NCBI GenBank assembly: GCA_050246315.1
Contig: JBFWWG010000012.1
Span: forward strand, 32,001-96,000
Source: Nitrospiraceae bacterium
GTDB taxonomy: Bacteria > Nitrospirota > Nitrospiria > Nitrospirales > Nitrospiraceae
DNA length: 64,000 bases
Direction: 5' to 3'
Shown here: piece by piece, positions 12,681-29,650 of the stretch
Layout of the letters: every line of letters begins with the position of its first letter
Position numbering within the stretch: the stretch's first letter is position 1
The notes under the pieces: generated by a model
Databases searched by the model: none
The model's input: the letters and a program-made list of their open reading frames with translations, nothing else
Told to the model about the DNA's origin: nothing
Position numbers and translations under genes: made by a program

Positions 12681-12845
12681 ATGATGTGGACGTGGTGGTA
12701 TGTGCTGCTGCTCCTCTTCCCCTCTGCGATTCTCGTGATTCTGATGATGGACGCGATGAAGTCCCTACAGGGCGCTGCGCGTTCGAAGACCGGGACGGTA
12801 TCAGGCAAGAATCGGATCGACGCGGACGGCTCCCGCCGCGGCTAG
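12681..12845 (+). CDS. Small (54 aa) single-pass membrane protein, absent from the ORF track
   Basis: AAGGGAGG RBS; MMWTWWYVLLLLFPSAILVILMMDAMKSLQG...RRG*. Confidence 0.55.
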   Translation: MMWTWWYVLLLLFPSAILVILMMDAMKSLQGAARSKTGTVSGKNRIDADGSRRG

Positions 12846-13486
12846 CGGTTTGAGGACTGCCTCCTTCGCAGATAGCATAGGTCTCGAAACGCATCACCGG
12901 CTTGATAAGTTGCGATCACCACATCATCATAGGGCGGCGAAGTGAGGCCTACGTACGTCCGCCCATCCACCTCGAACGGCTCGATCGTAAACAGCGTGTG
13001 CAAGGCCGCAGAGGCGCCGCCGCCTGCTCCCTCCGACAACGGATAGACGCCGCCCGTCCGCTCGAACTTGTCCGGGGTGGCGTGAAGAGGCGTCAGGTCC
13101 TGCCAGGTCGCCTCTTGCAACACCGGACTGTCTTCAGGAAACACGTACAGACTGTCGCTCGGTTTCCCCTTCATGCAGAAACGAGCGCGGATGACCAGGT
13201 CCCGACGCCCGTCGTTGTTCAGATCGACCAGCGCCTGCTGCAATTCGGAACAGACGGTGGTCTTGGGCGCCTCCCCTCCCAATTGAACCGGCTCCCAGAT
13301 CACGGGATGAATCCGATCGTCCTCCGGCCTGAAGACCCTCGATGGAGAGGCCCCCACCTCAAGCGCCTCCGCCGCCTGCCGGCACAATTGCTCGTCTCCT
13401 CCCATCAGCACATCGTACCCGGCGGCCCAAGCCACGCCGGCGGATAAGAGAATCAAGAGGCCGATCAGTCGGATTCGATCCATCAT
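12842..13486 (-). CDS. Secreted hypothetical protein
   Basis: Signal peptide (..AGVAWA), DLNNDG Ca-binding-like motif, paired Cys. Confidence 0.7.
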   Translation of the reverse strand: MMDRIRLIGLLILLSAGVAWAAGYDVLMGGDEQLCRQAAEALEVGASPSRVFRPEDDRIHPVIWEPVQLGGEAPKTTVCSELQQALVDLNNDGRRDLVIRARFCMKGKPSDSLYVFPEDSPVLQEATWQDLTPLHATPDKFERTGGVYPLSEGAGGGASAALHTLFTIEPFEVDGRTYVGLTSPPYDDVVIATYQAGDAFRDLCYLRRRQSSNR

Positions 13487-13501
13487 GCGCTCACGCCGGC
13501 G

Positions 13502-13972
13502 TCACTCTTGGTTCAGATAGAGCGGACGCGGTCTCCTCTCCTGCTCGGGTCGCGAAGGACCGGCCGGCTCACGAAGGGTCTCGATGACCTGTTCTTCCAT
13601 CTGTTCGTTATAGCGATCCACCTGTTTGTGAAGCGTGACGAGATCCACGAACCACCAGCCGATCAGCATCAGCCCGCCGCAGATCGCCGCGCCGCGGAAC
13701 ACCAGACTCCAACTCTCGTCCATCACCCAGGACCACAGAAATCCCACGAAGAACCCGACCGTTCCCACCGTGAAAGCCAGGAGATAGCCGACCGCCTTCC
13801 GGGGCCGTTCCAAGTAAAAGTGGTGCACCCCGCACCAACCGAGCACCAACCACAGGGCATAGGCCGTCAGGGCGGACTTGTGAAGCCGCACCATCTCACT
13901 GTTCAGCACCTCAAGTTGATGGGCCGATAGCGTGGTCTTCAGTTCCACCAGGTGGGATCGGTAGCGCATCAT
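13502..13972 (-). CDS. TM2-domain membrane protein
   Basis: KSAL.AY.LWL.LG..G.H.FYL motif. Confidence 0.8.
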   Translation of the reverse strand: MMRYRSHLVELKTTLSAHQLEVLNSEMVRLHKSALTAYALWLVLGWCGVHHFYLERPRKAVGYLLAFTVGTVGFFVGFLWSWVMDESWSLVFRGAAICGGLMLIGWWFVDLVTLHKQVDRYNEQMEEQVIETLREPAGPSRPEQERRPRPLYLNQE

Positions 13973-14106
13973 TGCACGATCTTGTCAGGCCGGCTTCTCG
14001 AACGACACAAGCCCAGCTCCTGATCAGTCTACACCGACTCGCCTCCGTTGGGCACGCGAACCACCTTCCAATGTTTGATATGATGAATTCGGCAGGCGGG
14101 AGTTCC

Positions 14107-14835
14107 ATGGGCGTATCTTCAGCCAGGGCGGCCGAGCCCCCTTGTCAGACGCCTCAGCGGCGCAGGGCGGCGCTGGAGTTGCTGGTCGTAGGTGCCCTGA
14201 CGAGCGGCTTCCTCGCGCTGTTTCCACGCCGACCCATTGTCGTCGATCTCGGCCTCGCCCTCCTCGCAGCAGGTCTTGTGCTCCTCAACGCCAGCTCCAT
14301 CAAGGCTCAGTTTTGGGGACCGCGCCCGGTGGCCATCGGTGGCGCAGCCCGGCAGCACGGCGTGGTGATCACCCTGGCCCTGACAATCCTTGTGATTCTC
14401 GGATTGGTATTCGTCGGAGCCGTGATCGGCTATCGAGGCGCCGATTGGCCCGGCGTGAGGGCCCGGCTCCTCCATCCCTACATCCCCACCGCCATCCTGT
14501 TGTACCTGCCCTGGGCCTGGCTCCAGCAGACGCTCTTCCAGTTCTACCTCCTCGGCCGCGTGCGCATGCTCTGCCCATCGCTCCATCCGGTCGCGCTATC
14601 CGCGGTGAACGGGCTGCTCTTCGGTCTGGTTCACGCCACCGACATCGAAATCATGCTCTCGGCGGCGCTGGGAGGCACCCTTTGGAGCTGGTTGTACCTT
14701 CGCGACCGCCGGCTCTGGCCGCTGGCGCTCTCACATGCCCTCGTGGGCACCACGTTTTACTACTGGGTGTATGGCTACGATCTCGCGAGCCGCTGGAGCG
14801 CCTTCCTTCGCGGCTTGTGGAGCGCTCCCGTATGA
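14107..14835 (+). CDS. CPBP/Abi (CAAX protease-like) membrane protein; catalytic EE replaced by QQ
   Basis: Multiple TM helices, LQQ..FQFYL.GR, LFGLVH, LALSHA motifs. Confidence 0.7.
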   Translation: MGVSSARAAEPPCQTPQRRRAALELLVVGALTSGFLALFPRRPIVVDLGLALLAAGLVLLNASSIKAQFWGPRPVAIGGAARQHGVVITLALTILVILGLVFVGAVIGYRGADWPGVRARLLHPYIPTAILLYLPWAWLQQTLFQFYLLGRVRMLCPSLHPVALSAVNGLLFGLVHATDIEIMLSAALGGTLWSWLYLRDRRLWPLALSHALVGTTFYYWVYGYDLASRWSAFLRGLWSAPV

Positions 14836-14978
14836 TTCCAGACCACGGCTCCGACCATGGCCCGTTGCAACCGCAACGCAGCGGGGGAGATGCTACGACC
14901 CGCCACGAATCCTACGCACGAGCCGGCGAACCGGCGAGCATTCTTGTGTGGTGTGCCGCTGGGCTGAGCTCTCGGGAT

Positions 14979-15117
14979 CTAGCAGGATGCGGCCAACCCC
15001 TCCGTTCGTCCTTCGAGAGCCTCAGGACGAACGGAGCAGTTTTTGAAGAGACCGGCGTTTTTCGATCGTGCTGAGCCAGTCGAAGCACACACATCGCGTT
15101 TTTTCGCAGCCTGCTAG
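14979..15117. mobile_element. Short MITE-like element with CTAG ends and an internal REP-like hairpin
   Basis: Terminal inverted repeats CTAGCAGGATGCG...CGCAGCCTGCTAG; internal CCGTTCGTCCT...AGGACGAACGG hairpin. Confidence 0.7.
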
Positions 15118-15118
15118 T

Positions 15119-15919
15119 TCATGCGGACTGCGCAGACCGGCAATGTCGGGCGAGAGCATGCGAAGCTGCCTCGATGAGGGGCCGAGACAGAACGGAAGGC
15201 TCGTGTTGGAGAAAATGGGAGACGGCTTTCGGATTGAGGACCCAGACATCGTCCTTACTGTGATGCCCTGTCCGTTCGACATACCATTCAGGGAACACCA
15301 CAATCGGTCGGACATGAAACACCGCGCTCCGCCCGTCATTGAGAAAGTCGGACAGCCAGCTTGCCTGTGCGTGCGCCTGCCGTAACGGTTTCTCGAGGAC
15401 TTGATTCTGTCCGATCCGAATGGTCTGACCATCGTAGACGATTTTCGCGCAGCCCCCGATCGGCTTGGTTCTCGTTTTCGTCTCGATTGCGAAAATGCCG
15501 GCAGGCCCGACAATCACATGATCGATATTGAACCCCGGACCAGGAACGTCGTGGAACACTCGATAGCCTCCTTCCCGCAACTGTTCGAGGGTCTGCCCCA
15601 CTGAACGTTCCCCATCTCGACCTGTACGAAGATTCTTCATGGTCGTCCTCAAAGGCACGATCCTTCTCCAGGCATAGCCGATGGCGATGATCGCGATGAT
15701 CGTCAGCACGACAGGGTTGAGTGGTCGCCCCGTCCACTGTTGAATCCACCCGAAACATGCCGCGACAATGCAACACATTGCCATGATCAAATGCTCGACT
15801 ATTTTCTCCTGCAAGAATCCGATGCGCTCATCGATGGATTGGCCGGGGAGTCGAAGGGGCGTCTCCTTGAGTGGTGAACGCCGGGCTGATTGTTTGTGAT
15901 CCCAGTCGATATCAGACAT
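15119..15919 (-). CDS. Membrane-anchored NERD-domain nuclease-like protein
   Basis: Two TM helices, then G.DGE..V...L, FHD, NIDHVIVGP.GIFAIETK NERD motif. Confidence 0.85.
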   Translation of the reverse strand: MSDIDWDHKQSARRSPLKETPLRLPGQSIDERIGFLQEKIVEHLIMAMCCIVAACFGWIQQWTGRPLNPVVLTIIAIIAIGYAWRRIVPLRTTMKNLRTGRDGERSVGQTLEQLREGGYRVFHDVPGPGFNIDHVIVGPAGIFAIETKTRTKPIGGCAKIVYDGQTIRIGQNQVLEKPLRQAHAQASWLSDFLNDGRSAVFHVRPIVVFPEWYVERTGHHSKDDVWVLNPKAVSHFLQHEPSVLSRPLIEAASHALARHCRSAQSA

Positions 15920-16254
15920 AGCGGCTCCGTCCTAGTCGCTCCTAAAACCGGATCATCCTATATCCGAGTGAACGCTCGTCATAGGAATTGGTGAATTCCA
16001 GGCAGAGCGGGGTGAAAGACCGGATTAGGCAGCAAGCGCTTGACAGGGACGAGTCCTACCGGAAATCCTCCGTCGTGCGTGACAGCATCAGGCGCTTTCC
16101 TTTCCATACTTTCCTTGTCGGCGGGAGCGACGGAACCATTCCGTTGTCAAAGCACGGCATGGTGTTGTCTGCGCGGGCGTGCGGCTTGCCTCTTCACACC
16201 TAATCGGTTACAGTGTTATTTGATATCACGATTTGATAGCATGTGGAGGGATCG

Positions 16255-16491
16255 ATGAGCACCATTACCGTGACGTTGCCTGATGACCTGCTCGAACGCT
16301 CTACTCGTTATGCCCATTCGCTGCGAGTGTCGAGAGCGGCGTACATCCGGCAATCATTGGAGCGCATGAACCGGGAAACCGAACGGCGTTTGCGAGCCGA
16401 TCGCCTCATCCACGCCTCGCGCAAGGTTCGCGACGAAAGCATGCGCGTCAATGCGGAGTTCGATACCATCGAAACCGATCCACATGCGTAA
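16255..16491 (+). CDS. Ribbon-helix-helix antitoxin
   Basis: MSTITVTLPDDLL..SRAAYIRQSL; overlaps the MazF start; direct repeats TTTGATA upstream (about 16219-16240) may be the operator. Confidence 0.8.
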   Translation: MSTITVTLPDDLLERSTRYAHSLRVSRAAYIRQSLERMNRETERRLRADRLIHASRKVRDESMRVNAEFDTIETDPHA

Positions 16492-17103: not shown

Positions 17104-18752
17104 CCTTCAATGTAGATGGGGCATTGCTGCCGTGGAATCGCCGGCCCGGTCTGCCACCAGTTCGAGGCGGAGGAGCCGCTTCAATGGGGCCACGGCATTG
17201 CTGCCGTGGAATCTCGAACGCCTTGCACAGGGCGTGTTACCGCTCTAGGCGCTTCAATGGGGCCACGGCATTGCTGCCGTGGAATCCCTTTTTTCGTTTT
17301 CCCCAGCCAAGGCATGCGAAGATCTTGGCTTCAATGGGGCCACGGCATTGCTGCCGTGGAATCCTCAACGGCGGGACCGCCGGTGACGGTAAAAAGCTGC
17401 TGGCTTCAATGGGGCCACGGCATTGCTGCCGTGGAATCCCAACTTGGCAACTGCTGGCGTCGCGAGTGTGCTCACGCGCTTCAATGGGGCCACGGCATTG
17501 CTGCCGTGGAATCGGCCCGCCGCGATGGGAAGTGACGAACGGTTATTGCTGCTTCAATGGGGCCACGGCATTGCTGCCGTGGAATCCACGGCCTGGTCGA
17601 TGATGGGCGCGAGCGGCCTACTGGCTTCAATGGGGCCACGGCATTGCTGCCGTGGAATCTTCGGACCGTGAGTCCCTGAAGTCGTTGATTGACCTGCTTC
17701 AATGGGGCCACGGCATTGCTGCCGTGGAATCCGTGCTGGATACCCCTGACCTCGCCCGACTCGTCACCGCTTCAATGGGGCCACGGCATTGCTGCCGTGG
17801 AATCTGGCGGCGACGACCGAAGCGCCACCTCCGCGCATTCGGTAGCTTCAATGGGGCCACGGCATTGCTGCCGTGGAATCAGTATCAATGTGGAACTACC
17901 CGAAACATAAGCTCTCCGCTTCAATGGGGCCACGGCATTGCTGCCGTGGAATCGCGCAACGAATTGGCCGAAGAGATCGAGGAGCTAGAGCTTCAATGGG
18001 GCCACGGCATTGCTGCCGTGGAATCCGCGCAACGTCACCGCATCGTTCTTGCGGATATACGCGCTTCAATGGGGCCACGGCATTGCTGCCGTGGAATCCG
18101 AAGATATGGGCCAGTCAATTAAAGCAATGCGTTGGCTTCAATGGGGCCACGGCATTGCTGCCGTGGAATCCCGCACATTGACGGCGCGTGCGGGATGTCG
18201 AGTGTCGCTTCAATGGGGCCACGGCATTGCTGCCGTGGAATCGTTTTTGTCCATGCCATACGACACTCCTTCTCAACAGCTTCAATGGGGCCACGGCATT
18301 GCTGCCGTGGAATCTGGTTTCATGTGAACCATTCATCGACGCCTACGTAATATGCTTCAATGGGGCCACGGCATTGCTGCCGTGGAATCTCCGGTCAAGG
18401 TGATCGGCGCCCCCGTACTCCCGGCGCTTCAATGGGGCCACGGCATTGCTGCCGTGGAATCCGGATTCCGCGGCGCTGCTGTGGGTCGTGGTCTCTTCGC
18501 TTCAATGGGGCCACGGCATTGCTGCCGTGGAATCCTTGGCCGATGCGATGGAGATCCGCGGCGCCGAATCGGCTTCAATGGGGCCACGGCATTGCTGCCG
18601 TGGAATCAAACCCTTTCTCAAAGTCTTTGCCTAAGACTTTGCCGCTTCAATGGGGCCACGGCATTGCTGCCGTGGAATCACCCGCTCTTCACCGATGCGA
18701 CGGATTGGTATCTGTTGCTTCAATGGGGCCACGGCATTGCTGCCGTGGAATC
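17104..18752 (-). CRISPR. Type I-G CRISPR array: 23 repeats of 36 nt (22 identical plus 1 degenerate) and 22 spacers of 36-41 nt
   Basis: + strand repeat GCTTCAATGGGGCCACGGCATTGCTGCCGTGGAATC; the - strand ends ATTGAAGC with a CCACGGCA/TGCCGTGG hairpin; degenerate trailer repeat at 17104-17139. Confidence 0.98.
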
Positions 18753-18971: not shown

Positions 18972-19262
18972 TCACACCACACGCGCCCGTCGTTCCTCCA
19001 CCTCCACCCGAAGGCCGAGTGCTTCGAACCGCTTAATCGGCCGGCTCTCCGTCGGACCCAGATCGATGATCAGGACTTGATCCTCGGTCTGGTGGATGAT
19101 CTCCGTCAGCGCGGCCTTCATGCGGACCACATCGATGTCGGGAAGATCGCATTGAAAGACCGAAAGCTGCAAATGGACGCCATAGCCCTTCATGGTCTTG
19201 AACACGCGCCGGAGTCGCTTCGGATCGGCAATATCATACGTGACCAGATAGCACCGGCGCAT
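18972..19262 (-). CDS. cas2: CRISPR-associated endoribonuclease Cas2
   Basis: [21 protein letters not shown]...[11 protein letters not shown]; true start at 19262 (the ORF track over-extends it). Confidence 0.95.
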
Positions 19263-19267
19263 GGCAG

Positions 19268-20992
19268 TCACCGCGTAATGATGGCCGGCAGCTCCGGGAT
19301 CTCGCCCAAGAGGTAGCGTCCCAGCAGCCGCGCCTGTACTTCCAACACCCGCCGATAGCTGATCTGATAGCCGAACACCGGATGGGTCAACTCCTGTCCC
19401 ATTCGCCGCTCGTAGGTCTCGATTAACCGGCGGCGTCCCTCCGGCGTCAAGGTCACGGCCCCCATCCGCTCGATCCAGTCCGTCGTCCGGATCTCCCCGT
19501 TGTTGATGGCGGTCAACACAGCCGAATCCGCAATCAACGGCCGGAACTCTTCCATCATGTCGAGCGCCAAGGCCGGACGGCCGTAGCGCGGCTGGTGGTA
19601 GAACCCCAGATAAGGATCGAGTCCCACGCTCAGCAGCGTGACGGTCCACTCGCGCGCCAGCATCGAGTAGAGCAACGACAACATGGCGTTGACGGGATCG
19701 CGCGGCGGCCGGCGATTGCGTCCCTCAAAATCGAACCGCGCCCCCGGTTCGGCCTCCTTCAACATGCCGGCAAACTCTGAAAAGTACCGCCGGGCCGCCG
19801 TACCTTCCGTACCGAGTAGCGACTCCACCGATTCCGCTGAGCCGGCCTGCCTGTGATCATATTTCAACTCCTGAATCACCGTCTCCGGCGCAGCCCGGTG
19901 ATTGCGCCGGAGCAGCGTGCGGCAATTGGCAATCTTGGCCTGGACGAAGCGTCGCGCCAGTTGAAGACACCGTTCACGGTCCGCCGCGACCGCGTACTGC
20001 CGACGCCGCAGTTCCACATGTTTGTGCAGGAGGCCCGTCGTCATGCCGTAGAACCAGCCACCGCTCGAACAGTAAACCAGCGGAATTTCGCGTTTGCAGA
20101 GTTCCTGAATCGCTTGTGTACTGACTTGCACGGCTCCGTACAGGACCACTTGAGAGGTTTCCACCAGCCGCGCCTCGCCGATCACCTCGTCGTGATCTTT
20201 GATTCTGAGGCAATCCCCGTCCTTGGCCAACTTGGCGCCGGGGGTCTGCACATGCAGCGGCAGGGCATCATCGTTCGTGGGAACCAGTTTTCTGAGCGCC
20301 GGGGTTTCCCCTTCATGCGGCCCGCGCAGCCAGTCGATTTCGTCCGGCAAACAGAGCCCCACCAGCGAACAACGGGGACACTTGGGACTATCCACCAAGG
20401 GCGGCGGGGCTACGGATAAGGTCGTCATCGCCCGCATCTCCGCCAAGAGGTCCAGCGTTCGGGCAACGAAGGCCTCGTCAAACGGCACCTCGACCCGCTC
20501 GCGCGAACCGACGAAATAAAGCACACCCCGGTCGCAGCTATAGCCCTGTTCCCGCAGCAACAACCCCTGCACACAGAGCTGCACCCGCTCCGGCTCCCAC
20601 GCGCCCTGCGCCGTATGCGGGCGCTTGCCCCGCTTGTAATCCACCGGCACGACTGCGCGGGCCCCTTCCTCTTGTCCCGAGGAGATCGCCTCACCTTCCA
20701 CCAGGTCGATCTTCGCCGTCACCCCGAGCCGCTCCGAGGATAGCCAGACCGACCGCTGATGGATGGCCGTCTCAGCCGCCTCGTCCTCCGCCTGCTTCGC
20801 TTTTCGCGCCGGCGCCTGGTCCACGCGCCGATGATGGAACCGGCCCTCAACCGTCTCGGCGTTGTCGGCGAACTCCCCGTCCACCCATTCGAAGTAGGCC
20901 AGACGCGGACAATAGGTGAATTCGTTCACCATCCGGGCGGGGAGCAACGGAATGTCGCTCCCCGAGGATGGCCCTAGGGATTCGTTCTCCAT
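19268..20992 (-). CDS. cas1: Cas4-Cas1 fusion
   Basis: N-terminal YCPRL..., DYKRG, QL, CPRCSL..LC Fe-S Cas4; C-terminal [28 protein letters not shown] Cas1. Confidence 0.95.
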
Positions 20993-21175
20993 ACTCCCTC
21001 TATCGGCGGGAGCGATGGAAATATTCAGATGTCAAAGAACAAAGGCGACCGAATGAGCCCCACCCGGTACCGGTCAGCCCCGGCCCCACAGGCTCGGGCA
21101 TGGCAACTCATGCCTCAACCTCATGCTCTACCTGCTCACGCGCCAGATGCCGAGGGTATCGCCCCCGACGATGTC

Positions 21176-21373
21176 TTACTTCACCCCAAGCTCACCCTTC
21201 GCACGGCTGAGGGGAACGGAGCGTTTCCGGCCTTCCGTCTTCTTCGCCTTGCGGAGTTGCAAAAGGTCTTCCATGTCCTCCAACCGTTCTTTTAAGGACA
21301 CGAACTCTTCATACGGCAGCACGGCAAACTGTTTTTTCCCGTCTTTGATCAGAATCTCAGGATGTAAGGTCAA
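21176..21373 (-). CDS. Phd/YefM-like antitoxin
   Basis: I..DGK..FAVLPYEEF..LKE.LEDMED; downstream of a RelE-like gene. Confidence 0.75.
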   Translation of the reverse strand: MTLHPEILIKDGKKQFAVLPYEEFVSLKERLEDMEDLLQLRKAKKTEGRKRSVPLSRAKGELGVK

Positions 21374-21393
21374 GATCGACTTCTTCTCAAGCC

Positions 21394-21641
21394 TTAACGA
21401 TAGGCCTTATCTCGTGACAACACGCGAAAGATTATCACCCGGTGCCTGCAACCTCAAAAAGCACACGGTAGTCCCCCACCCGCAATCGGTATTCCGGCGT
21501 GAAGTGAGTGAGGCGTTTCACATCGCCGGCAAGGTCGATCTCCAGCGCCTCCACCTTCGCGACGACCCTTTCGCACTCACGCAAGGTCAGGGTTTTCAGA
21601 TCCTTGATCGCCCTTGGCTTGAATTCAATGTTGTATTGCAT
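21394..21641 (-). pseudogene. RelE/ParE toxin with a 1-nt deletion near the 3' end
   Basis: YRLRVGDYRVLFEV.. stops early at 21435; the shifted frame gives VIIFRVLSRDKAYR*, a typical RelE C-terminus. Confidence 0.75.
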
Positions 21642-21737
21642 TCATGCTCCAACCGTCCCGGACGAATAGGGAAGCGGAAACCGTACGTGTCATAGCTTGC
21701 GCCTCACACGCACAGGTTACGATCTTCACCTGAGCCC

Positions 21738-21815
21738 TTACGCGCTCCGCTCGCCCCCACGACCATCCACCGGCATAAATTGCCCGAGGCCGAAGTGGCA
21801 GCCGTAGCCGAGGGA
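21738..21815 (-). pseudogene. Relic 3' end of an older csb2 gene
   Basis: Reads SLGYGCHFGLGQFMPVDGRGGERSA*, matching the Cas6-type Gly-rich C-terminal loop of Csb2. Confidence 0.7.
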
Positions 21816-21826
21816 GCAAGGTATAT

Positions 21827-22789
21827 TCACACTGGTATTCCCATTGTGAAGTTGCGAAACCTGCCTTGGGTAATTCGCTCGCAGCGATAGATTTCCTTGA
21901 TCCCCATCGCCTCGAGCTGGCGTCTATTAGGGCACTCTGCCCGTAGTTCATCTAATGCCAACAGAGAACGTACAACGTCTACACTGACCTCACCCTCCCA
22001 GATAGGCCAGGTCCAGAACACACCGATATCTTTGCGTCTGATAAAGCCGGTGGTTTCAAGTCGATTCCCAATCGGTGCTGTCGGCAATAGCGCTATACCT
22101 TCGATCGCGAGCCGGTTGGCACCCCAGACGCTACCTTGAACCTTACGCGCAGGGTCTCCACTAGGCTCACTCCAGCGCAGTGCACGACGTACATCGTCAC
22201 GAGGATCCCAACGCATAGTGTGTTTCTCCATAGGATCATCATAACGCCAGGGTTCCATCAGCGCTTTGCACAAATGTTCTGATTGGCTGTCCTGAGCCAA
22301 TTGCCGCATGGTTCCAAGAAAGTGCTGGTGCCCAGACCCACTCATAGTGCGCAATGCTGTATCCGCAACAATCTTGGGGTCGGTCATGTTCCTTATGGCT
22401 TCACTGCCAAATGCCGCCAGAAAATCAGCAAGGCGCCTTTCGCTGTTGGTGCCCGTCTTCTGCGCTTTTACGGCTTCCTTGCGAAAGTCCTCAATCTTTA
22501 TCGTGAGGTTGTCAGCCAGCTCAAAAGCTTCATGCTTCGGCTCTCGTCTCAGTTCTTGCATCAGTTGGGCAAAAAGATCGATCTTCTCATCAAAATCCAC
22601 GGTCAGCTCTGGCCGCCAACCACCCTCGTCTCGTTTCCAGGTCATGCGACAGCGATAGCATCGCCACGCCAGCGTTGCCGTTCTCAATGTTCCTATCGCG
22701 GCGAGAAAGGCGAGCGGATTGCTGCCATCCAGTCCTTTCAATAACCAACGGTTCTTCATACGCCACCTTGAGGGACGGTTTAATTTCAT
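21827..22789 (-). CDS. Type I-G short large-subunit-like protein (Cas8g/Csb3-type)
   Basis: ATGA-coupled to cas3; N-terminal GLDGSNPLAFLAAIG.LR, later RWDP, GANRLAIEG, F.WPIW, resembling Cas8g-family motifs. Confidence 0.7.
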   Translation of the reverse strand: MKLNRPSRWRMKNRWLLKGLDGSNPLAFLAAIGTLRTATLAWRCYRCRMTWKRDEGGWRPELTVDFDEKIDLFAQLMQELRREPKHEAFELADNLTIKIEDFRKEAVKAQKTGTNSERRLADFLAAFGSEAIRNMTDPKIVADTALRTMSGSGHQHFLGTMRQLAQDSQSEHLCKALMEPWRYDDPMEKHTMRWDPRDDVRRALRWSEPSGDPARKVQGSVWGANRLAIEGIALLPTAPIGNRLETTGFIRRKDIGVFWTWPIWEGEVSVDVVRSLLALDELRAECPNRRQLEAMGIKEIYRCERITQGRFRNFTMGIPV

Positions 22790-25700
22790 TGTTCAGCTTC
22801 ACTGCGGCGATGGTCTGCCAGCCGCATGATCGCTTCAAGCCATGCGAGTCCCCACCAGCCGTATCGTCGCGTGAGCGCCCAAAATCGCTCAGCCACTCCA
22901 GAATCCAGAAATTCAAGACCCGTCGCGCTGGAATGGATCAACTGGCGACCTTGAAACTTCACGGCCACATCCATTGGGATGTCATCAATCACGACGGGCG
23001 CAAAAGGCCTGCAATAACCATGATGACTGCCAACCAAATGCAGCACCAACATCGGAAGATACTCATCATCTCGTGGCAACAGGTCAGCGGCTTGTTCGAG
23101 AAAACGCACAGAAAGCAATTCGTGTCGGCCGCCGTTAGGGTAGCCGGCACGCCGCCTGGCCTTTTCGCTGGCATGTCTTCCTTGAGGCATATCCGAGGAC
23201 TTTGCGAGCAAATCACTCCCTACCCAAGGATTGCCGCCCCTGAGCCACGCCTGAAAACGCGGGTCGGCCTTGCCGAGATCGTGCGCCCGAGCCGCCAACT
23301 CCACTGCGTTTACCAACGGCTTTGATAAACCGCACCCTTCCGCAAAATGACGAGCAAACTCCGCTACTCCGTCGAGATGCGCCGCAAGCCCTACGCGACA
23401 AGTACCAGAAGCAGTGGCATCGTCCTCATCCGAAAAAGCATCGGTCTCGCCTGGGCGTGCGGAGAGCCTCTTGCTACCCCGTACCACCAACCCACCCATT
23501 GGGTGCAACATAAGACCATGTGCAAGCTTCTTATCACTAGCGAGGCTTAATGCGATCTCCCTGAGCCATTCTGGAGCAACCGCATCGCCTCCCATATTCG
23601 AAAATGCTGCTCTAAGATCATCAGCCAATAACTCCGGATCTGCCTCAAGACGATTCGCTGCCTCCGCAGCAAGGCGACGTAGTCGTTCCGTGGATGATGT
23701 TTCAGGGAAGATGGACATGACCTCCGGGTGTAACCGAAGCATTGCCTTTGCTCGCGCAATGCGATGCGCGCGATCGCCCCAATCCAACACGGGTTGTCCG
23801 TTCGGTCCCGCGGGTAGACCACCAAGAACATCCCAGCCACCCGCCTCTGCGGGAATGACCACGACATCACCGGGGCAAATTTCTTGTGGATCGGAGATGA
23901 CCCGTGAGTCCTTCCGTCCGCGCCAACGAACGACACAAGAAGTGCTTAACGCCGTGTCAGACTCCGCGACGAAATCTCTGCTCGCTCCTTCCACATCGGT
24001 ATCGTTGCTACCGGCAGCTCTGTCTCCCATGAGCCAGTTGCGTAAAGTGACGATCGTAACAGGCAGGCACTCCATCGCGGCGGGAGGGCAAAGAGCGAGT
24101 GTTTCGAGCCAGTCTTCCTCGCCACCAACACGAAGATCGGCCCGCCAGCACACCTGCACATCAGCCGAGGCTCGTTCCGGGCCGTGCAAGAAGACAGCGA
24201 CGTCCGGTGTAGGTGTTGGCTCCGGGGCCGTCTGCGCCCAGCAGTCAACATGGGAAGGAAGTATCACCGGGGCATGCGCAGCGGGAGCGACAAGTTTCGC
24301 CAATTTCGCTCCGCTCGGCAGCCTCCCGGCTAATGCCATGATGCCCATGCTAAGCACCTTAGCTTTCCCCCCTTGCTCGTTCAGCCATTTCCATGTCTCG
24401 GTAAGTGCCGGTCCATACACCGGATCATCTTCACTCTTCTCGGTTTGATCGGCCCGGATAAGAATCGCAGCCTTGGCGCCACGAGGATGACCGGCCTCGT
24501 CCCTTCCATCGATTGTTCGCCCCATTCGGTTGAGTCGCCCAAAGCGCTGTCGCAGCGCATCAAGACTGGCACACTCGGTCACCAATACGTCGAAATCCAA
24601 ATTGGCGCCAACTTCCAACGTCTGGGTGGTAACGACGAACAGAGGACCAGCAAGCTGTCGCTCTTTTGAATGTTCAGCGGAGAGAGCTTCCAGCCGTGCT
24701 GCTACCGTATCGTCCTTGTCAATCGCTCGCATCCGTCCAGTGAGCAACACCGCTGCCTGACCGTAATTCTTCGTGAGCAACCTGTGGATATGGCGTGCGG
24801 TGGCTACGCGGTTAGCGAATATCACCGCGGCAACCGCCCGTCCTGCAACCAGGTCCTCGGCTTTTATTGCTAACGCAGCAGCAAGCATTTCCTCAGCGTT
24901 CGCGCGGAGTTCGACAAGCTGCTTGCGCAGGCGTCTTTGTGCATTGCTGCCCTTGGCCTCTTTCAGTTGTTTGAGCGTATCTTTGACTCCCCAAGCAAGT
25001 TTCTTATCTTTTTCAGTTGGCTGTATAAGCTCAGTGGGCTTCTCCGCAAGTTGTCTGTCACCGAGCCGATGACCAGCGGTCTTCGGCTCCTCGGAGTTGT
25101 CCCTGAACACATCCGACAGCCCATCCGGCGGCGTGGCGCTCATGATGACGATATGAAATGGCGCCTTCGGTACGGCATCGCCCCAAAGGCGATACTTTTT
25201 TACTGCCTGCAAGGTCTCCAGAAAGGGTTGAGCACAATGGGCTTCGTCGAGCAACACCAACGCATCGTTACCGGCCATGCCTGCTTGTATGGGCCACGCA
25301 CGGTGGGAGCGACCGTAGGCCCGGAACAGCAGGCGCGAGCCCAGTTGATCCACTGTGCTGGCAATCACTGCCGGTTGGATAGGTGAATGTGCCCATGCAT
25401 CGGAACGATACATGCCGCCGCGTAACTGAAAACAAGCTAAGGGTTCTTCGCCACCCGAAAGTCGGCGCAGTTGGTTGGCTACGCTGTACAGAATGCCCTT
25501 GGTTGCTCCCCGCAACCTGTCGGCGATCTTGCGGGCGCGCTCATAGGCTTCATCAACGATCACACGGCGATCCACGACAAAAAAGATGCGCCGCGGAGCG
25601 GTCAACGATTGATCCGGTGCCAACATGTCCGCCTGTGCCGCCAAAGCGAAGACGGCGATGTCGATGCAGACCGTCTTGCCAGAGGCGGTTGGCAGTGCGA

Positions 25701-25836
25701 TTGCGTCAGGCCAAGGCCTCGATGTATTCGACAATACCCTTTCAGCCAGGTCTCTCTGCCACTGAAACGGAACATGTCCATGTCCCCAAAGCGCTGTGAA
25801 GAAGTCGCTGAAGTCTGCGGCATTCAATTCAGGCAT
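22786..25836 (-). CDS. cas3: Type I-G Cas3 (helicase with C-terminal HD nuclease)
   Basis: PTASGKT, VDRR.IVD, STVDQ.GSRLLFR, DEAH, TQT.EVG, QRFGRLNR; HL...HDLGKAD and HH near the C-terminus. Confidence 0.95.
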   Translation of the reverse strand: MPELNAADFSDFFTALWGHGHVPFQWQRDLAERVLSNTSRPWPDAIALPTASGKTVCIDIAVFALAAQADMLAPDQSLTAPRRIFFVVDRRVIVDEAYERARKIADRLRGATKGILYSVANQLRRLSGGEEPLACFQLRGGMYRSDAWAHSPIQPAVIASTVDQLGSRLLFRAYGRSHRAWPIQAGMAGNDALVLLDEAHCAQPFLETLQAVKKYRLWGDAVPKAPFHIVIMSATPPDGLSDVFRDNSEEPKTAGHRLGDRQLAEKPTELIQPTEKDKKLAWGVKDTLKQLKEAKGSNAQRRLRKQLVELRANAEEMLAAALAIKAEDLVAGRAVAAVIFANRVATARHIHRLLTKNYGQAAVLLTGRMRAIDKDDTVAARLEALSAEHSKERQLAGPLFVVTTQTLEVGANLDFDVLVTECASLDALRQRFGRLNRMGRTIDGRDEAGHPRGAKAAILIRADQTEKSEDDPVYGPALTETWKWLNEQGGKAKVLSMGIMALAGRLPSGAKLAKLVAPAAHAPVILPSHVDCWAQTAPEPTPTPDVAVFLHGPERASADVQVCWRADLRVGGEEDWLETLALCPPAAMECLPVTIVTLRNWLMGDRAAGSNDTDVEGASRDFVAESDTALSTSCVVRWRGRKDSRVISDPQEICPGDVVVIPAEAGGWDVLGGLPAGPNGQPVLDWGDRAHRIARAKAMLRLHPEVMSIFPETSSTERLRRLAAEAANRLEADPELLADDLRAAFSNMGGDAVAPEWLREIALSLASDKKLAHGLMLHPMGGLVVRGSKRLSARPGETDAFSDEDDATASGTCRVGLAAHLDGVAEFARHFAEGCGLSKPLVNAVELAARAHDLGKADPRFQAWLRGGNPWVGSDLLAKSSDMPQGRHASEKARRRAGYPNGGRHELLSVRFLEQAADLLPRDDEYLPMLVLHLVGSHHGYCRPFAPVVIDDIPMDVAVKFQGRQLIHSSATGLEFLDSGVAERFWALTRRYGWWGLAWLEAIMRLADHRRSEAEQ

Positions 25837-27427
25837 GATCTCTGTCTCCCTGCGAAAGGGGCCGGCAGAGACCATAGCCACGATACCGCCCGGCGCCCAC
25901 CAACACAGGACCCTCAACGTCTTCTCCGAAATCGATCACAGCATGAGCATGGGACATACGCCCACCATCCTTCTTGCGGATCAAATAAGGGAACTCGTTA
26001 CTTCTCGGAACACCCTCAAACATTGATACCGGATGCAATAAGACTTCCTGTGGACGAGGCAGACCAATACGTTTGCATGCGTCCTTGACGCTCTCCGCCG
26101 TATGCTCCCATTTATCTTTGCCATTGAAATGACGATCCAACACCACTGGCGTGACACTGGCCCATACGCGCGCCGGGCCTGTCCATGTCTCTTGCCTCAG
26201 GCTCCACGGTGGTGATTCTCGGGTATCCAGCTCCACACCACACTCGAACCATTGTCCATCGAAAAGACGGTGGCGCTTGGGGAGTTCGTATTCATCACGT
26301 AACCAATGTCCCAGAACACGTGCTGGTTCGTCCTGTGAAACCGCTCGCGGCAATGTCAGAGCTACACCCAGCAGCCGACCATCGGCGTGTTCCCTTCCGA
26401 CAAATGGTAGAGGCACCAAAGCCAAGTGGGGTTTCTCGCTGCGTCCACCACCAGATGCATGACCGCACAGCCATTCCGGCAGAGGCTGTGAAGCGCCGGC
26501 CATCAATGCTCCACGCAACGCTTCGGTAAGCCTGAGAGTAGCCGGAAGCGACAATCGCGGACCAGAAAGACTCAACACCACCAGGCGAGGATCGAAGATG
26601 CTGCCGCGAATCGTTTTCCCAGGCTCTATAAATGGTTTGTTGTACCCCGTGTAATGCCACGAATTCGGTCGCAACCGATCGATGATGCCATGGAGATAGT
26701 TCTCCCGCCTTTTCTTGAGGTCGTTTCTCCGCTTACCATGGGCCGCTTGCTCCAGCGCCCATAAATCGTCAACTACCGCGATGTGTGCCTCACGCCCACA
26801 CGTTCTGATTAAATAGTCGAGCCGCCCCGGCCCAAAGATGCGCAAGCGATGGCGGGTCACACCCTCGCGCTCGACAAGAGTGGGTGCTGGTGGGGAGTCG
26901 GTCAACCACATCTGCACCAGTGAAGCGGGATGACCGATGGAGACCACCTTCCCGCAAAGGCGGGCAAGCGGTTCGCGGTAAATTTCTGGAATGTCGTCGT
27001 TCCATATCAGATGAACGACTGGGTCATGAGGGATGGCGACTGGGAAAGAACGCTCCTGCCTGGGACGGAACTCTACAGCCACTGTCAGACCGGCCTCCTT
27101 CAAATCCTTGAGGGAAGGTTGCGGATCAGCAAGCACTGAAGCGAGTTTCTTCGATCCGGCCAGTTCCGAGTCGTTCGCTGGCACGTAACTAGTAACCACC
27201 TCTCGAAACTCAGCCTCCGAAGCTGCAATCCCCGGTGGGTTAAGTCGTTCCAACCAGCGAAGGATTTCTCCTTCGGCGGCGTCCTGGTCTGTTTCAAACC
27301 ACGCCGCCGTAAGCGCCATAAATACCCGATCCGGATGGGGTGGCCATTCGGCGCGCTCTTTCTTTGGTCCATCTGCCGCCGCCATCACCCACCCATTCAA
27401 AAAGTGGATGCCGAGACCAAACATCAT
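25829..27427 (-). CDS. csb2: Type I-G Cas5/Cas6 fusion Csb2
   Basis: EWPPHPDRVF.AL, W.SVTP, C-terminal GP..VGAGRYRGYGLCRP. Confidence 0.92.
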   Translation of the reverse strand: MMFGLGIHFLNGWVMAAADGPKKERAEWPPHPDRVFMALTAAWFETDQDAAEGEILRWLERLNPPGIAASEAEFREVVTSYVPANDSELAGSKKLASVLADPQPSLKDLKEAGLTVAVEFRPRQERSFPVAIPHDPVVHLIWNDDIPEIYREPLARLCGKVVSIGHPASLVQMWLTDSPPAPTLVEREGVTRHRLRIFGPGRLDYLIRTCGREAHIAVVDDLWALEQAAHGKRRNDLKKRRENYLHGIIDRLRPNSWHYTGYNKPFIEPGKTIRGSIFDPRLVVLSLSGPRLSLPATLRLTEALRGALMAGASQPLPEWLCGHASGGGRSEKPHLALVPLPFVGREHADGRLLGVALTLPRAVSQDEPARVLGHWLRDEYELPKRHRLFDGQWFECGVELDTRESPPWSLRQETWTGPARVWASVTPVVLDRHFNGKDKWEHTAESVKDACKRIGLPRPQEVLLHPVSMFEGVPRSNEFPYLIRKKDGGRMSHAHAVIDFGEDVEGPVLVGAGRYRGYGLCRPLSQGDRDHA

Positions 27428-28737
27428 TCGTCTCCTTCTTCACCCTCTGCAGCAATTTCGTGACTCCGGCGTACCAACTGGAGCAGGTCGTCGGAGGGAG
27501 CAAGTTGGATGACATTCCTTTCCCACGGCAATCCCAACTGTACTGCCTCGTCCACAGCCTCATTGAAGAGCACTACTGCATTATCGGCTGTAAGATCGAA
27601 CGGTGTCTCCCGGCCGGGTCCGCTCAGAAGATTCCACTCAAATGGTCCATCAGGAACAAGTTGGCAACGGGATCGTAGATCCGAACCTTCCTCGCGCGCC
27701 AGCGTGGCTGCACAGATGCCAAGAGCGGCCAGCACCGTGCGTGCCGCCTTGTCTACCATGGTCTGTTCTTCAGCATTCTTGCCTTGGAGAGGAAATCGCA
27801 GTCGTCGCAGTGCTGTCAGTGATAGCACAGTGGTCTGGCTAGCTTTGTCGATTGTGAAACCACCTCTGATGCGTGGTTCTCCATTTTTCTCCCGAATAAT
27901 GTTGTTTCTGTTGTCTTTAGCATAGGCAAAATCTGGCGTTACACCGCCAAGATTGGCTTCAGATGGCTTGCCCTCCTTGCCAATCTTCAGTCTCTTCCCA
28001 TCCCTTTCACGAGCATCGGACTCGTTCAGAGTCCAATGGGGAAGAGAGTCAGATTTTTTCTGGCGCTGAAGGAGCGGCCCCGCACTTCTCAGAATATTCA
28101 GGTGATCGACCTTGCCACCGGTCGTGATCCCCGGCTGAGCATTGATGCCTACAATCTCCGATACGAGTGCCCGTTGGAACTTCGCGCCTAGACCACCGCG
28201 CGGTCCTGCAGAGTCCCATAGCCCAAACAGTAACGCTGTTGGGCAGAGACCAAAGAGCCCGGTTGCATTTCGAAGATCAGCCACATCCAAAACTCTGCCT
28301 TTACTCGACCTGCGAAACAGCACCGCCTGGCCAGCTTCCTCATGGAGGCTGTCGCGAAACAGGGCGTCTGCAACACGGTGAGGAGCGTCAAGACTCGTTA
28401 CCTTGATAGTCTTCGGCACTCCCCTCACTTCGAACTCGAACTTCACCTGCACTATCGGAAGTGAATGGGGTCCGAAACGTTTCGCTTCCCATGCATCCAG
28501 CAGCGCCGACTCCATTCGGTTGGCCTGGGATTGCACCGAATCCAACAGTACGCAGTCCACAACCTTGCTGTCCTTCATCACTCGTTTCTCGGTCGCATAC
28601 TTTCCACCTTCGTAAGTCGGCGGGAATACCTTGTCCCCAGGCCCACCGGCGGGCTGATACTCGGTTACGCATCGCAACGCTGCGGCTGAACCACCCACTG
28701 CTTGTTTCACTTTCTCCAATGTCAGCGTCTCACTCAT
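27424..28737 (-). CDS. csb1: Type I-G Cas7 backbone Csb1
   Basis: QPAGG.GDKVFPPTY, DSVQSQANRME, PHR.ADA, PTALLFG.WDS, LRRLRF, LRSRC.L. Confidence 0.93.
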   Translation of the reverse strand: MSETLTLEKVKQAVGGSAAALRCVTEYQPAGGPGDKVFPPTYEGGKYATEKRVMKDSKVVDCVLLDSVQSQANRMESALLDAWEAKRFGPHSLPIVQVKFEFEVRGVPKTIKVTSLDAPHRVADALFRDSLHEEAGQAVLFRRSSKGRVLDVADLRNATGLFGLCPTALLFGLWDSAGPRGGLGAKFQRALVSEIVGINAQPGITTGGKVDHLNILRSAGPLLQRQKKSDSLPHWTLNESDARERDGKRLKIGKEGKPSEANLGGVTPDFAYAKDNRNNIIREKNGEPRIRGGFTIDKASQTTVLSLTALRRLRFPLQGKNAEEQTMVDKAARTVLAALGICAATLAREEGSDLRSRCQLVPDGPFEWNLLSGPGRETPFDLTADNAVVLFNEAVDEAVQLGLPWERNVIQLAPSDDLLQLVRRSHEIAAEGEEGDE

Positions 28738-28790
28738 GGACAGCTCCTCCTTTGTTTACACTCTTCTTCTCAATCCAGAATTTTCCTGAA

Positions 28791-28952
28791 CTACACCCAT
28801 CCCAGCACCGCCATCGCGGTTTTGCCAAGACCTGTCGGCACATCCACCAACGATGGTAAGATTCGCTCGCAGGCGAAGCGGACCTGGAATGGATACGGGA
28901 CATATCCCGTCGCCTGCTTGAACCATTCAGAGAATTGTCGCTCCTGACTCAT
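28791..28952 (-). pseudogene. Relic 5' stub of an older cas3 (53 aa)
   Basis: MSQERQFSEWFKQATGYVPYPFQVRFACERILPSLVDVPTGLGKTAMAVLGWV* contains the helicase Q-motif and Walker A typical of I-G Cas3 N-termini. Confidence 0.75.
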
Positions 28953-29103
28953 CTGGCTTTCCCCCTGTCACTCTTTACTCTCTCCTGTTCCGACTCCCAC
29001 TCCCCATCCAGCGGCGTATACGGTATCCGTTGTAAAGGACCTCTCACGAACTGAGCACGATCGGGACATTCCGTAGACTGAATTCCACATGGAGGATATT
29101 TCA

Positions 29104-29216
29104 ATGGGTGTCTCTCAAATTCTGCAAAGGACCAAATTCTGATTCCTCGACCACTCCGACGCATACTCGGGTTCAAAGCCGGGGGCAAGGTGCCGTTGAT
29201 CGAGGAGGCGAGTTAA
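29104..29216 (+). pseudogene. Decayed AbrB/MazE/SpoVT-type antitoxin
   Basis: GGAGG RBS; with frameshift repair it reads MGVSQI(S)AK(G)QILIPRPLRRILGFKAGGKVPLIEE. Confidence 0.55.
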
Positions 29217-29440
29217 CGTCCCGAGCAGGCATACGCCATTTTCCTGAATGATTCAATACGCAGAGGATGGACAAACGGTCCTATTGGACCCGCCTCCAAT
29301 CAGCACCGGTGGCTCGTTCGGCGAGTGGCCTGGTCTTCGCCTGCTCCTCCTGAGATGCCGACCTGCCGGCCGGCGGCGTTGACGGAAGGCCTGGATGAGA
29401 CCGGCTTTGTCTTTCCCTGCCGGTGCTGTACAATCCGCGC

Positions 29441-29650
29441 ATGGCTTTCGATCCGGACAATCCGCCCATCTGGCTGCGCAAGCTCCACGTGACCGCGGTG
29501 CAGATCAACCCGACGGACTATCCGACATCGCCCATCGATGGCCTCCTGGCCGTCTGTCGTCTTTCCGATGCCCAGTACCATTGGATAAGGGCGATGCGCC
29601 GCGCCACCACCGAAGCCGATGGCGCCGCATCGCCCTCTTCTCACAGCTAG
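29441..29650 (+). CDS. Small hypothetical protein, likely partner of the downstream nucleotidyltransferase
   Basis: ORF MAFDPDNPPIW... ends 8 nt before the NTase start. Confidence 0.45.
   Translation: MAFDPDNPPIWLRKLHVTAVQINPTDYPTSPIDGLLAVCRLSDAQYHWIRAMRRATTEADGAASPSSHS

What the first reader, a model, noticed from the sequence alone, without database searches (positions are those of the whole stretch)
21738..28952. In-place replacement of the type I-G effector module, with fossils of the previous operon on both sides
Seen: just upstream of csb1 is a 53-aa cas3 5' stub (28791-28952; ATGY.PYPFQ...VPTGLGKT). Just downstream of the Cas8g-like gene is a csb2 3' stub (21738-21815; LGYGCHFGLGQF). 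The intervening csb1-csb2-cas3-cas8g block is visibly more AT-rich than cas4-cas1/cas2. Established: another I-G variant has the order cas3-csx17-csb1-csb2, starting with cas3 and ending with csb2. Inference: that module was replaced by a different I-G variant while the upstream region, adaptation genes and array were kept, possibly to escape anti-CRISPRs.
Basis: partly seen in the sequence, partly recalled or inferred. Interest (0 to 1): 0.78.

Follow-up and report, generated by a model that had tools for sequence, protein, structure and literature searches.

The report
Swapped CRISPR effector genes with scars
In this Nitrospira genome the interference genes of a type I-G CRISPR system were replaced on the spot by a different I-G variant, and short leftovers of the old first and last genes mark both edges of the swap.

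Summary
Observation confirmed. 28791-28952 (-) is the first ~55 codons of a Cas8g1/Csx17-type cas3. 21738-21821 (-) is the last ~27 codons of that type's csb2. Between them lies an intact csb1-csb2-cas3g-'Cas3-extension' module with GC3 0.54-0.57, against 0.78 for cas4/cas1.

Interpretation supported. Relatives keep the full cas3-csx17-csb1-csb2 operon at this place. The same-genus genome G001 has 82-87% identical flanks and both stubs, but a third module type (cas3-cas8g2-csb1-csb2).

The Cas4/Cas1 proteins of 22 Nitrospirales loci form one clade. Their Csb1 proteins fall in at least 12 places among other phyla, and an AU test rejects one clade for the W-type Csb1.

The event is not unique. 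All 10 replaced Nitrospirales loci whose upstream DNA is available carry cas3 5' stubs. One carries five fragments. Four loci in other phyla also have such stubs.

Public metagenome contigs show a near-identical strain whose sequence departs from the window at the two stubs. This suggests that modules are exchanged like cassettes at these conserved blocks.

In situ effector shuffling is already a named trend, so this is a well-marked new example. Unexplained: every stub is short, and related cassettes share breakpoints. The anti-CRISPR motive is untested.

The parts
17104..18752 (-). CRISPR array: 23 repeats of 36 nt (22 identical, the distal one degenerate) and 22 spacers. Repeat in operon direction: GATTCCACGGCAGCAATGCCGTGGCCCCATTGAAGC.
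18972..19262 (-). cas2 (kept adaptation module)
   Evidence: TIGR01573 and PF09827; the 96-aa form aligns full length in relatives
19268..20992 (-). cas4g/cas1g fusion (kept adaptation module), GC3 0.78
   Evidence: NF049935, 804.6 bits; 88-90% identical to G001; tree
21176..21373 (-). antitoxin-like ORF (65 aa), downstream partner of the ParE-like toxin
   Evidence: conserved in G001
21435..21641 (-). ParE/RelE-like toxin gene, frameshifted near codon 65
21738..21821 (-). csb2 3' stub: the last ~27 codons of a Cas8g1-type csb2 (..LGYGCHFGLGQFMPV..stop). It begins 5 nt after the stop of the Cas3-extension gene.
   Evidence: In runs X3 and X16 the assembly branches at 21769-21798, inside this stub.
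21827..22789 (-). Cas3-extension family gene, the small large-subunit-like gene of this I-G variant (incoming module)
   Evidence: NF049934, 242.7 bits
22786..25917 (-). cas3g with helicase and HD domains (incoming module). The ORF call starts at a TTG inside csb2; the likely start is the ATG at 25836.
   Evidence: TIGR02621, 713 bits, match from residue 35; translation
25829..27427 (-). csb2, the Cas5-Cas6 fusion (incoming module)
   Evidence: TIGR02165, 293 bits
27424..28737 (-). csb1/cas7g (incoming module)
   Evidence: TIGR02570 and PF09617; nearest relatives
28791..28952 (-). cas3 5' stub: codons 1-53 of a Cas8g1-type cas3, Walker A motif included. Homology may run to about codon 58, with TGG changed to TAG at the stop.
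28953..29016 (-). retained upstream leader of the old cas3, alignable at the nucleotide level with the region before a full-length cas3 in L032
   Evidence: 28793-29016 against L032, 77.9%

Best explanation
The locus is a working-looking type I-G CRISPR-Cas system whose interference operon was exchanged in place. The ancestral operon was of the Cas8g1/Csx17 type: cas3-(small NTase-like gene)-csx17-csb1-csb2. It stood between the same upstream region and the same cas4/cas1-cas2-array.

DNA carrying a complete csb1-csb2-cas3g-Cas3-extension module, with only about 50 nt before csb1 and about 5 nt after the last stop, now occupies that place. What remains of the old operon is its leader, roughly the first 55 codons of cas3 and the last ~27 codons of csb2.

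The new module can use the old array because I-G repeats are nearly the same in all three I-G variants.

Shown here: the identity of the stubs, the ancestral order in relatives, the syntenic flanks, the composition break, the tree conflict, the recurrence, and strain-level variation bounded by the stubs.

Inferred: the exchange happens by recombination, and the old promoter now drives the new module.
For: Gene identities.

Stub identity.

Ancestral order in relatives: in G014 the genes are cas3 840 aa, a 169-aa gene, Csx17 (TIGR04113, 358 bits), csb1 and csb2, followed directly by cas4/cas1. The same order is seen in G004, L031, L032, L035 and L043.

Synteny: blastn of the window against same-genus G001 gives 82-87% identity over cas4/cas1, the toxin-antitoxin pair and more than 7 kb upstream. 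Both stubs align (84% and 75%). The module shows no nucleotide similarity. G001 instead has cas3-Cas8g2 (TIGR04106)-csb1-csb2.

Trees:
- Cas4/Cas1: the 22 rows I labelled Nitrospirales form one clade among 86 rows, support 99.
- Csb1: 19 Nitrospirales rows among 68 need 13 changes, at least 12 of them forced by starred branches. The window and G225 nest among database proteins named Pseudomonadota or Deltaproteobacteria, at 57-64% identity.
- The AU test rejects one clade for the 7 Nitrospirales W-type Csb1, p 6.4e-5.
- On the Cas4/Cas1 tree the module class changes at least 7 times and the cassette lineage at least 10 times among 19 labelled loci.

Composition.

Repeat compatibility: 45 of the 46 loci for which my script printed a repeat, covering all three variants, end in ..TTGAAGC after a hairpin.

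Recurrence: 10 of the 10 W- or G1-type Nitrospirales loci with upstream DNA available have A-type cas3 5' stubs.

Population data:
- In DNA run X3 the flanks have depth 44-56 and the module 17-22, with graph branches at 21769-21798 and 29223-29252.
- In run X16, from another study, a 14.6-kb contig follows the window over 20900-21798 with 17 differences and then departs.
- In the same run a 9.3-kb contig follows 29400-28793 with 22 differences and one gap, and departs exactly at the end of the cas3 stub.
Against: - No full-length cas3 closer than 79% to the stub was found among the 67 proteins with E <= 0.001. The donor of the stub is therefore unsampled or the loss is old.
- The csb2 stub alone is weak against the family model, E 0.049. 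Its identification rests on tblastn to relatives.
- With my 32-aa query the csb2 stub was seen in only 5 replaced loci (window, G001, G016, G032, G225). It was not seen in G137, G083, L033, L034 or L036.
- The stubs of the window and of G225 differ far more (67% nt, pS 0.72) than the cassettes beside them (80% nt, dS 0.5-1.0). A single simple 'replacement in this lineage' does not fit all the data.
- No promoter-like site stood out upstream of the stub: 3 sites found against 3.5 expected.
- The Nitrospirales group in the trees was labelled by me. It includes L026, whose title says Verrucomicrobiota. The AU group was named after I had seen the tree.
- dS values near or above 1 are close to saturation.
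Confidence: 0.9

Rival explanations
1. Cassette import. The illegitimate event that made the stub-module junctions did not happen in this genome's direct ancestors. A ready-made unit (end of the cas3 stub, W module, csb2 stub core) entered by homologous recombination from another Nitrospira. The conserved stub cores or the wider flanks served as crossover sites. This refines the best explanation rather than opposing it.
For: - Between the window and G225 the cassette has dS 0.50-1.04, but cas4/cas1 and cas2 have dS 1.5-1.8.
- One HSP of 7,178 nt at 80.2% runs from stub to stub.
- The two cas3 stubs are of different lineages: the window's is nearest G004/L032, G225's is nearest G014.
- The junctions lie within a few codons of each other, about codons 55-59.
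- The variant in X3 and X16 departs at the stub blocks.
- G001 and the Methanothrix MAG locus L085 carry related G1 modules, both joined to an A-type cas3 right after CLPM, near codon 80.
Against: - Chimerism of the stub could not be shown. The last 54 nt are 78-93% alike in all 21 pairs compared, and window-G225 (81%) does not stand out.
- dS is close to saturation and the two gene sets differ in GC3.
- In X3 the upstream branch lies at 29223-29252, not in the stub.
Confidence: 0.4
2. The stubs are kept because they do something, and are not mere debris. The cas3 5' piece could carry the promoter, the leader and a translated upstream ORF that helps express the new first gene. The csb2 3' piece could carry the start signals for the genes downstream.
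For: - A stub is present in 10 of 10 replaced Nitrospirales loci with upstream DNA.
- All 15 stubs in 11 loci are short: 33-112 aa from the start of the match to the next stop, and none of 115-300 aa.
- The stub ORFs end 20-55 nt before the new first gene.
- The csb2 stub always starts within about 3 codons of ALGY/GH..HFGLGQF.
Against: - No promoter signal above chance.
- The low pN/pS of the stubs can be inherited from their time as real cas3 genes.
- G032's stub carries a 111-nt insertion, and G016 keeps four or five stacked fragments that cannot all be leaders.
- No transcript ends were available, because the runs were held as contigs only.
Confidence: 0.3
3. Internal rearrangement of one operon: a tandem duplication followed by two deletions gives a circular permutation, with no foreign DNA involved.
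For: The order stub(cas3)-csb1-csb2-cas3-x-stub(csb2) is what such a permutation would give (reasoning only).
Against: - The stub is 36% identical to the resident Cas3g N-terminus but 70-79% identical to csx17-type Cas3.
- The stub's C-terminal motif HFGLGQF differs from the resident Csb2 end, GAGRYRGYGLCRP.
- GC3 differs by about 0.2 between the module and the adaptation genes.
- No csx17 remnant is present.
Confidence: 0.02
4. Assembly or binning chimera that joins two strains' loci.
For: The genome is in 30 contigs, and run X3 contains two variants of this region.
Against: - A single 12.8-kb contig in X1 spans both junctions with 0 differences.
- All sampled words of the stretch are held by DNA runs of four studies, some of which may be the source.
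- The one-contig genomes G225 and G001 have the same stub architecture.
Confidence: 0.01

Closest known systems
[quoted passage not shown] 2025, PMC12669027). I saw a Discussion passage and the legend of Extended Data Fig. 9, not the Supplementary Discussion.
   Same: Closely related cas1 genes stand next to distantly related effector genes at one locus. That paper names this as a general trend and gives cas9 of subtype II-C in Flavobacteriales as its example.
   Different: Here a four-gene class 1 module of a different gene order is exchanged. Both edges carry remnants of the previous operon. Remnants are stacked in relatives, and a population variant is bounded by them. The main text of that paper holds no 'I-G' and no 'pseudogene'. 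Its supplement may bear on this claim and was not seen.
Type I-G system of Thioalkalivibrio sulfidiphilus, the Cas8g1 type (Shangguan et al. 2022, PMC9638904; passages seen)
   Same: It is the variant that the fossils come from: cas3, Cas8g1/Csx17, Cas7 (Csb1) and Csb2. That paper places the crRNA-cutting residue (H503) at the C-terminus of Csb2 and says that three I-G variants differ in the size of the large subunit.
   Different: The window's working module is the variant with the small 'Cas3-extension' gene and the order csb1-csb2-cas3-x. I have not shown that the His in the stub's HFGLGQF is H503.
Geobacter-type I-G, cas3-Cas8g2-csb1-csb2 (NCBIfam models named GSU0051-GSU0054)
   Same: This is the module type that sits between the same two stubs in the same-genus genome G001 (TIGR04106, 194 bits).
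   Different: It is not the type in the window. The link to Geobacter rests on the model names only.
Sequential displacement of T6SS effector genes in Vibrio cholerae (PMC5361080; search listing and start of the abstract only)
   Same: An analogous process: modules at a fixed locus are displaced one after another.
   Different: A different system, with no CRISPR involved. I did not read the paper beyond the listing.

Membership tests
Type I-G CRISPR-Cas (whole locus) | Csb2 (Cas5-Cas6 fusion) present | tested here: met
   TIGR02165, 293.2 bits against a cut-off of 45, full length
Type I-G CRISPR-Cas (whole locus) | Csb1/Cas7g and Cas3g of the I-G families | tested here: met
   TIGR02570 56.4 bits (cut-off 38); PF09617 173.7 bits; TIGR02621 713.2 bits (cut-off 400)
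Type I-G CRISPR-Cas (whole locus) | Cas4/Cas1 fusion, Cas2 and an adjacent array | tested here: met
   NF049935 804.6 bits (cut-off 560); TIGR01573 34 bits; 23 repeats
I-G variant with a Cas3-extension gene (order csb1-csb2-cas3-x) | NF049934 protein encoded directly after cas3g | tested here: met
   242.7 bits against a cut-off of 65. The same order is found in 13 non-Nitrospirales loci, 12 of them without an upstream cas3 fragment.
I-G variant with a Cas3-extension gene | crRNA processing and interference by this module on this repeat | not testable with these tools
   Only indirect: the repeat is generic for I-G, and small RNA-library contigs without differences lie on csb1, csb2 and cas3 (a weak hint).
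Cas8g1/Csx17-type I-G operon (the fossils) | cas3 N-terminus of that type | tested here: met
   70-79% identity to full-length Cas3 of csx17-type operons, 36% to the resident Cas3g
Cas8g1/Csx17-type I-G operon (the fossils) | csb2 C-terminus of that type | tested here: met
   tblastn to the Csb2 ends of G004, L032, L039 and L043, E 1e-8 to 1e-10. The family model alone gives E 0.049.
Cas8g1/Csx17-type I-G operon (the fossils) | csx17 itself, or its csb1, present | tested here: not met
   No match of G014's Csx17, 169-aa protein or Csb1 in window 15001-36000 at E <= 0.01. The old operon survives only as the two stubs.
In situ effector-module shuffling | Close adaptation genes and flanks paired with distant effector genes | tested here: met
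   Window against G001: Cas4/Cas1 88-90%, flanks 82-87% nt, module of another architecture at 25-30% aa. Trees.

The most novel reading that the evidence does not exclude
The two stubs are more than scars. Their conserved cores are the Walker-A-coding ~54 nt of cas3 and the HFGLGQF-coding ~45 nt of csb2. These cores would act as portable homology arms that turn the whole I-G interference operon into an exchangeable cassette.

Once a foreign module has been joined to these cores by a rare illegitimate event, it could spread by ordinary homologous recombination into any I-G locus of the csx17 type or any locus already carrying stubs. Spacers and adaptation genes would stay in place.

This would explain four things:
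- Related cassettes share inner breakpoints next to unrelated stubs (window and G225; G001 and a Methanothrix MAG).
- Strains differ exactly between the stubs.
- All stubs are short.
- Stubs pile up.
Probability: 0.35. Interest if true: 0.75.

Novelty: new member of a known kind. Interest (0 to 1): 0.55.

Why it matters
Effector and adaptation modules of CRISPR-Cas are known to recombine, and in situ shuffling has recently been named a general trend. How it happens is inferred almost only from conflicting trees.

Here the edges of the exchanged DNA can be read to within a few codons. They can be read in many loci, in several layers, and in a population that still holds two variants. That makes the mechanism directly testable: where the crossovers fall, whether the resident promoter is captured, and how much flanking homology is needed.

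It also shows that an I-G array can be served by three differently built interference modules. This is useful for engineering I-G systems and bears on the idea that hosts change effectors to escape phage inhibitors.

Tried and rejected
- Promoter and terminator consensus scan of 20900-29500: 3 promoter-like sites against 3.5 expected, none before the stub. Uninformative.
- Scan of metagenome contigs with Csb1: 1 locus at 48% identity. No help for finding the donor.
- Search for the 30-nt loose ends of the alternative variant in the own genome and in all fetched loci: no match. Its content stays unknown.
- Test for a chimeric stub (5' part against 3' part): inconclusive, because the core is 78-93% alike in all pairs.
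- Search for a near-identical full-length cas3 (longer proteins): best 79%.
- Same-genus genomes G002 and G003: no I-G Cas4/Cas1 found with this query, at 97% and 90% completeness.
- Earlier notes of this scan: nothing returned.
- RNA-library contigs: parts of the stretch without cover say nothing. Small contigs on csb1, csb2 and cas3 are only a weak hint of expression, and DNA carry-over is possible.
- Rows dropped in the stub survey: hits whose best query was the over-extended L070 ORF, lying on the opposite strand beside cas4; hits directly abutting a locus's own cas3 start (L049, L088, and one in L118); and two tiny hits in L073.
- L029 and L038 were left out of counts and trees as duplicates of L023 and L025.
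Full report
WHAT IS THERE. On the minus strand the window holds a complete type I-G CRISPR-Cas locus. In operon order it reads:
- a cas3 5' stub (28952-28791)
- csb1 (28737-27424)
- csb2 (27427-25829)
- cas3g (25917 or 25836 to 22786)
- a 'Cas3-extension family' gene (22789-21827)
- a csb2 3' stub (21821-21738)
- a ParE-like toxin gene with a frameshift, and an antitoxin-like ORF (21641-21176)
- cas4g/cas1g (20992-19268)
- cas2 (19262-18972)
- an array of 23 repeats (18752-17104)

All four module genes are open and score far above their family cut-offs. Record titles of the nearest loci name Nitrospira.

The 53-aa ORF matches the first 51 positions of the Cas3g model, E 3.7e-14. It includes the Walker A motif. 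It is only 36% identical to the resident Cas3g.

The 3' piece is weak against the Csb2 model, E 0.049 for positions 472-492 of 492. It does hit the real C-termini of Csb2 in relatives, E 9e-10 and 1.3e-9.

The module's GC (0.561) lies in the lowest 3.4% of 8,387 genome windows of equal size. Its GC3 (0.54-0.57) contrasts with 0.78 for cas4/cas1.

THE ANCESTRAL OPERON EXISTS IN RELATIVES. In the same family, G014 and G004 (one-contig genomes) and L031, L032, L035 and L043 carry a full-length cas3 whose N-terminus is 68-77% identical to the stub. It is followed by Csx17/Cas8g1 (TIGR04113), csb1, and a csb2 whose end matches the 3' stub. cas4/cas1 comes next.

L032 is the best match for both stubs (77% each). 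It also shares the nucleotide sequence just upstream of the cas3 start.

IN-PLACE REPLACEMENT. The same-genus genome G001 aligns with the window at 82-87% nucleotide identity over cas4/cas1, the toxin-antitoxin pair and more than 7 kb upstream. Both stubs align, but the module does not. G001 has cas3-Cas8g2-csb1-csb2 there.

So two close relatives hold two different foreign modules between the same remnants of a third type.

The Cas4/Cas1 proteins of the 22 loci I labelled Nitrospirales form one clade among 86 rows (support 99). One of the 22, L026, is a 3.5-kb contig titled Verrucomicrobiota. Their Csb1 proteins (19 rows of 68) need 13 changes. An AU test rejects one clade for the seven W-type Csb1, p 6.4e-5, although the group was named after the tree had been seen.

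The window's Csb1 is 81% identical to that of G225 and 57-64% identical to proteins named Pseudomonadota or Deltaproteobacteria. It is only 42-52% identical to other Nitrospirales W-type Csb1.

On the Cas4/Cas1 tree, module class changes at least 7 times among 19 labelled loci.

IT IS RECURRENT. A-type cas3 5' stubs are present in:
- all 7 W-type Nitrospirales loci (window, G225, G016, G032, G137, G302, G083)
- all 3 G1-type loci with upstream DNA (G001, L033, L034)

Several loci hold layers of remnants:
- L033 has [cas3 1-48][169-aa gene][csx17 1-54][cas3 1-27] before its module.
- G016 has five cas3 5' fragments.
- G225 has a csx17 stub, a cas3 stub and two csb2 3' stubs.

Four of the 36 non-Nitrospirales loci with a full cas3 also have such a stub: L085, L101, L063 and L103. 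L063 shows the reverse case, a Cas8g2-type stub before a csx17-type operon.

WHY THE SWAP IS TOLERATED. The repeat is conserved across the three module types in Nitrospirales. It has compensatory changes in the hairpin and an invariant 3' end. In 45 of the 46 loci for which a repeat was printed, from many phyla, it ends in ..TTGAAGC. From this I infer that any I-G module can read any I-G array.

POPULATION EVIDENCE. All sampled words of the stretch are held by DNA runs of four studies, some of which may be the source.

In run X3 the flanks have about twice the depth of the module. The assembly branches at 21769-21798, inside the csb2 stub, and at 29223-29252.

In run X16, from another study, long contigs follow the window's flanks at 96-98% identity. 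They leave it at 21798 and, on the other side, exactly at 28793, the last codon of the cas3 stub. A closely related strain therefore differs between the stubs. What it carries there is unknown.

WHAT DOES NOT FIT A SIMPLE STORY. The window and G225 share the whole stub-to-stub stretch at 80.2% identity. Module dS is 0.5-1.0, against 1.5-1.8 for cas4/cas1 and cas2. Yet their cas3 stubs are only 67% identical, with pS 0.72 and pN 0.21, and they belong to different cas3 lineages.

G001 and a Methanothrix MAG locus (L085) carry related G1 modules. Both are joined to an A-type cas3 right after CLPM, and their stubs are 42 of 72 identical.

All 15 stubs in 11 Nitrospirales loci are short, 33-112 aa to the next stop.

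These facts suggest that the conserved stub cores serve as crossover sites, so that the cassette travels with its inner junction. I could not show this, because the core is 78-93% alike in all pairs.

KNOWN OR NEW. [quoted passage not shown] I saw passages only, not its supplement. The I-G structure paper notes three I-G variants.

No held paper contains Nitrospira, CRISPR and 'type I-G' together. Two further searches gave nothing on such remnants.

This is therefore a clear, unusually well-marked case of a known process. The scars, their stacking and their possible role as anchors are the new part.

UNTESTED. The motive (anti-CRISPR escape), the promoter, and activity of the new module on this array.

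Noticed in passing
window 21435-21641 (-) and 21176-21373 (-): A ParE/RelE-like toxin gene sits between the csb2 stub and cas4/cas1. It is frameshifted near codon 65, and its C-terminal part reads in another frame. The 82-aa form is intact in G001 (PF05016, E 1.7e-11). The downstream antitoxin-like ORF is intact. The same toxin gene lies before cas4/cas1 in several relatives.
   Followed up: partly
own genome contig C29 (G000:C29:2218-2835; L008): A second I-G relic: the C-terminal half of a long Cas8g2-type-like Csb2 (best match L104, 37%). It is cut off next to an IS630-like transposase ORF on a 3.9-kb contig.
   Followed up: partly
L024 (G016) 12221-16324: Five cas3 5' fragments, two pieces of the 169-aa gene and codons 1-70 of csx17 are stacked upstream of the W-type module, about 1 kb apart.
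   Followed up: partly
L023 (G014) 10281-10790; also L033, L035, L038: A 169-aa gene between cas3 and csx17 has weak nucleotidyltransferase hits (AbiEii, DUF6036; E about 1e-3). It stays 85-93% identical even where only stubs flank it.
   Followed up: partly
L025 (G032) 11424-11693: The cas3 stub of G032 carries a 111-nt G-rich insertion in the middle of the reading frame.
   Followed up: no
L085 1022-1276 and L021 (G001) 10386-10628: A Methanothrix MAG and the Nitrospira genome G001 both have a csx17-type cas3 stub that ends right after CLPM, before related Cas8g2-type modules.
   Followed up: partly
46 loci: I-G repeats of all three variants and many phyla share a hairpin followed by GCC(C/T)CATTGAAGC or a close form. 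One locus (L099) gave a non-CRISPR repeat.
   Followed up: partly
window 22786-25917 (-): The longest cas3g ORF starts at a TTG 89 nt inside csb2. The family match begins at residue 35, so the ATG at 25836 is the likelier start.
   Followed up: no
L033 and L034: Two loci have almost identical Cas4/Cas1 (end branches 0.023-0.025) but carry Cas8g2-type modules of different Csb1 lineages and different stub stacks. This points to a very recent swap.
   Followed up: partly
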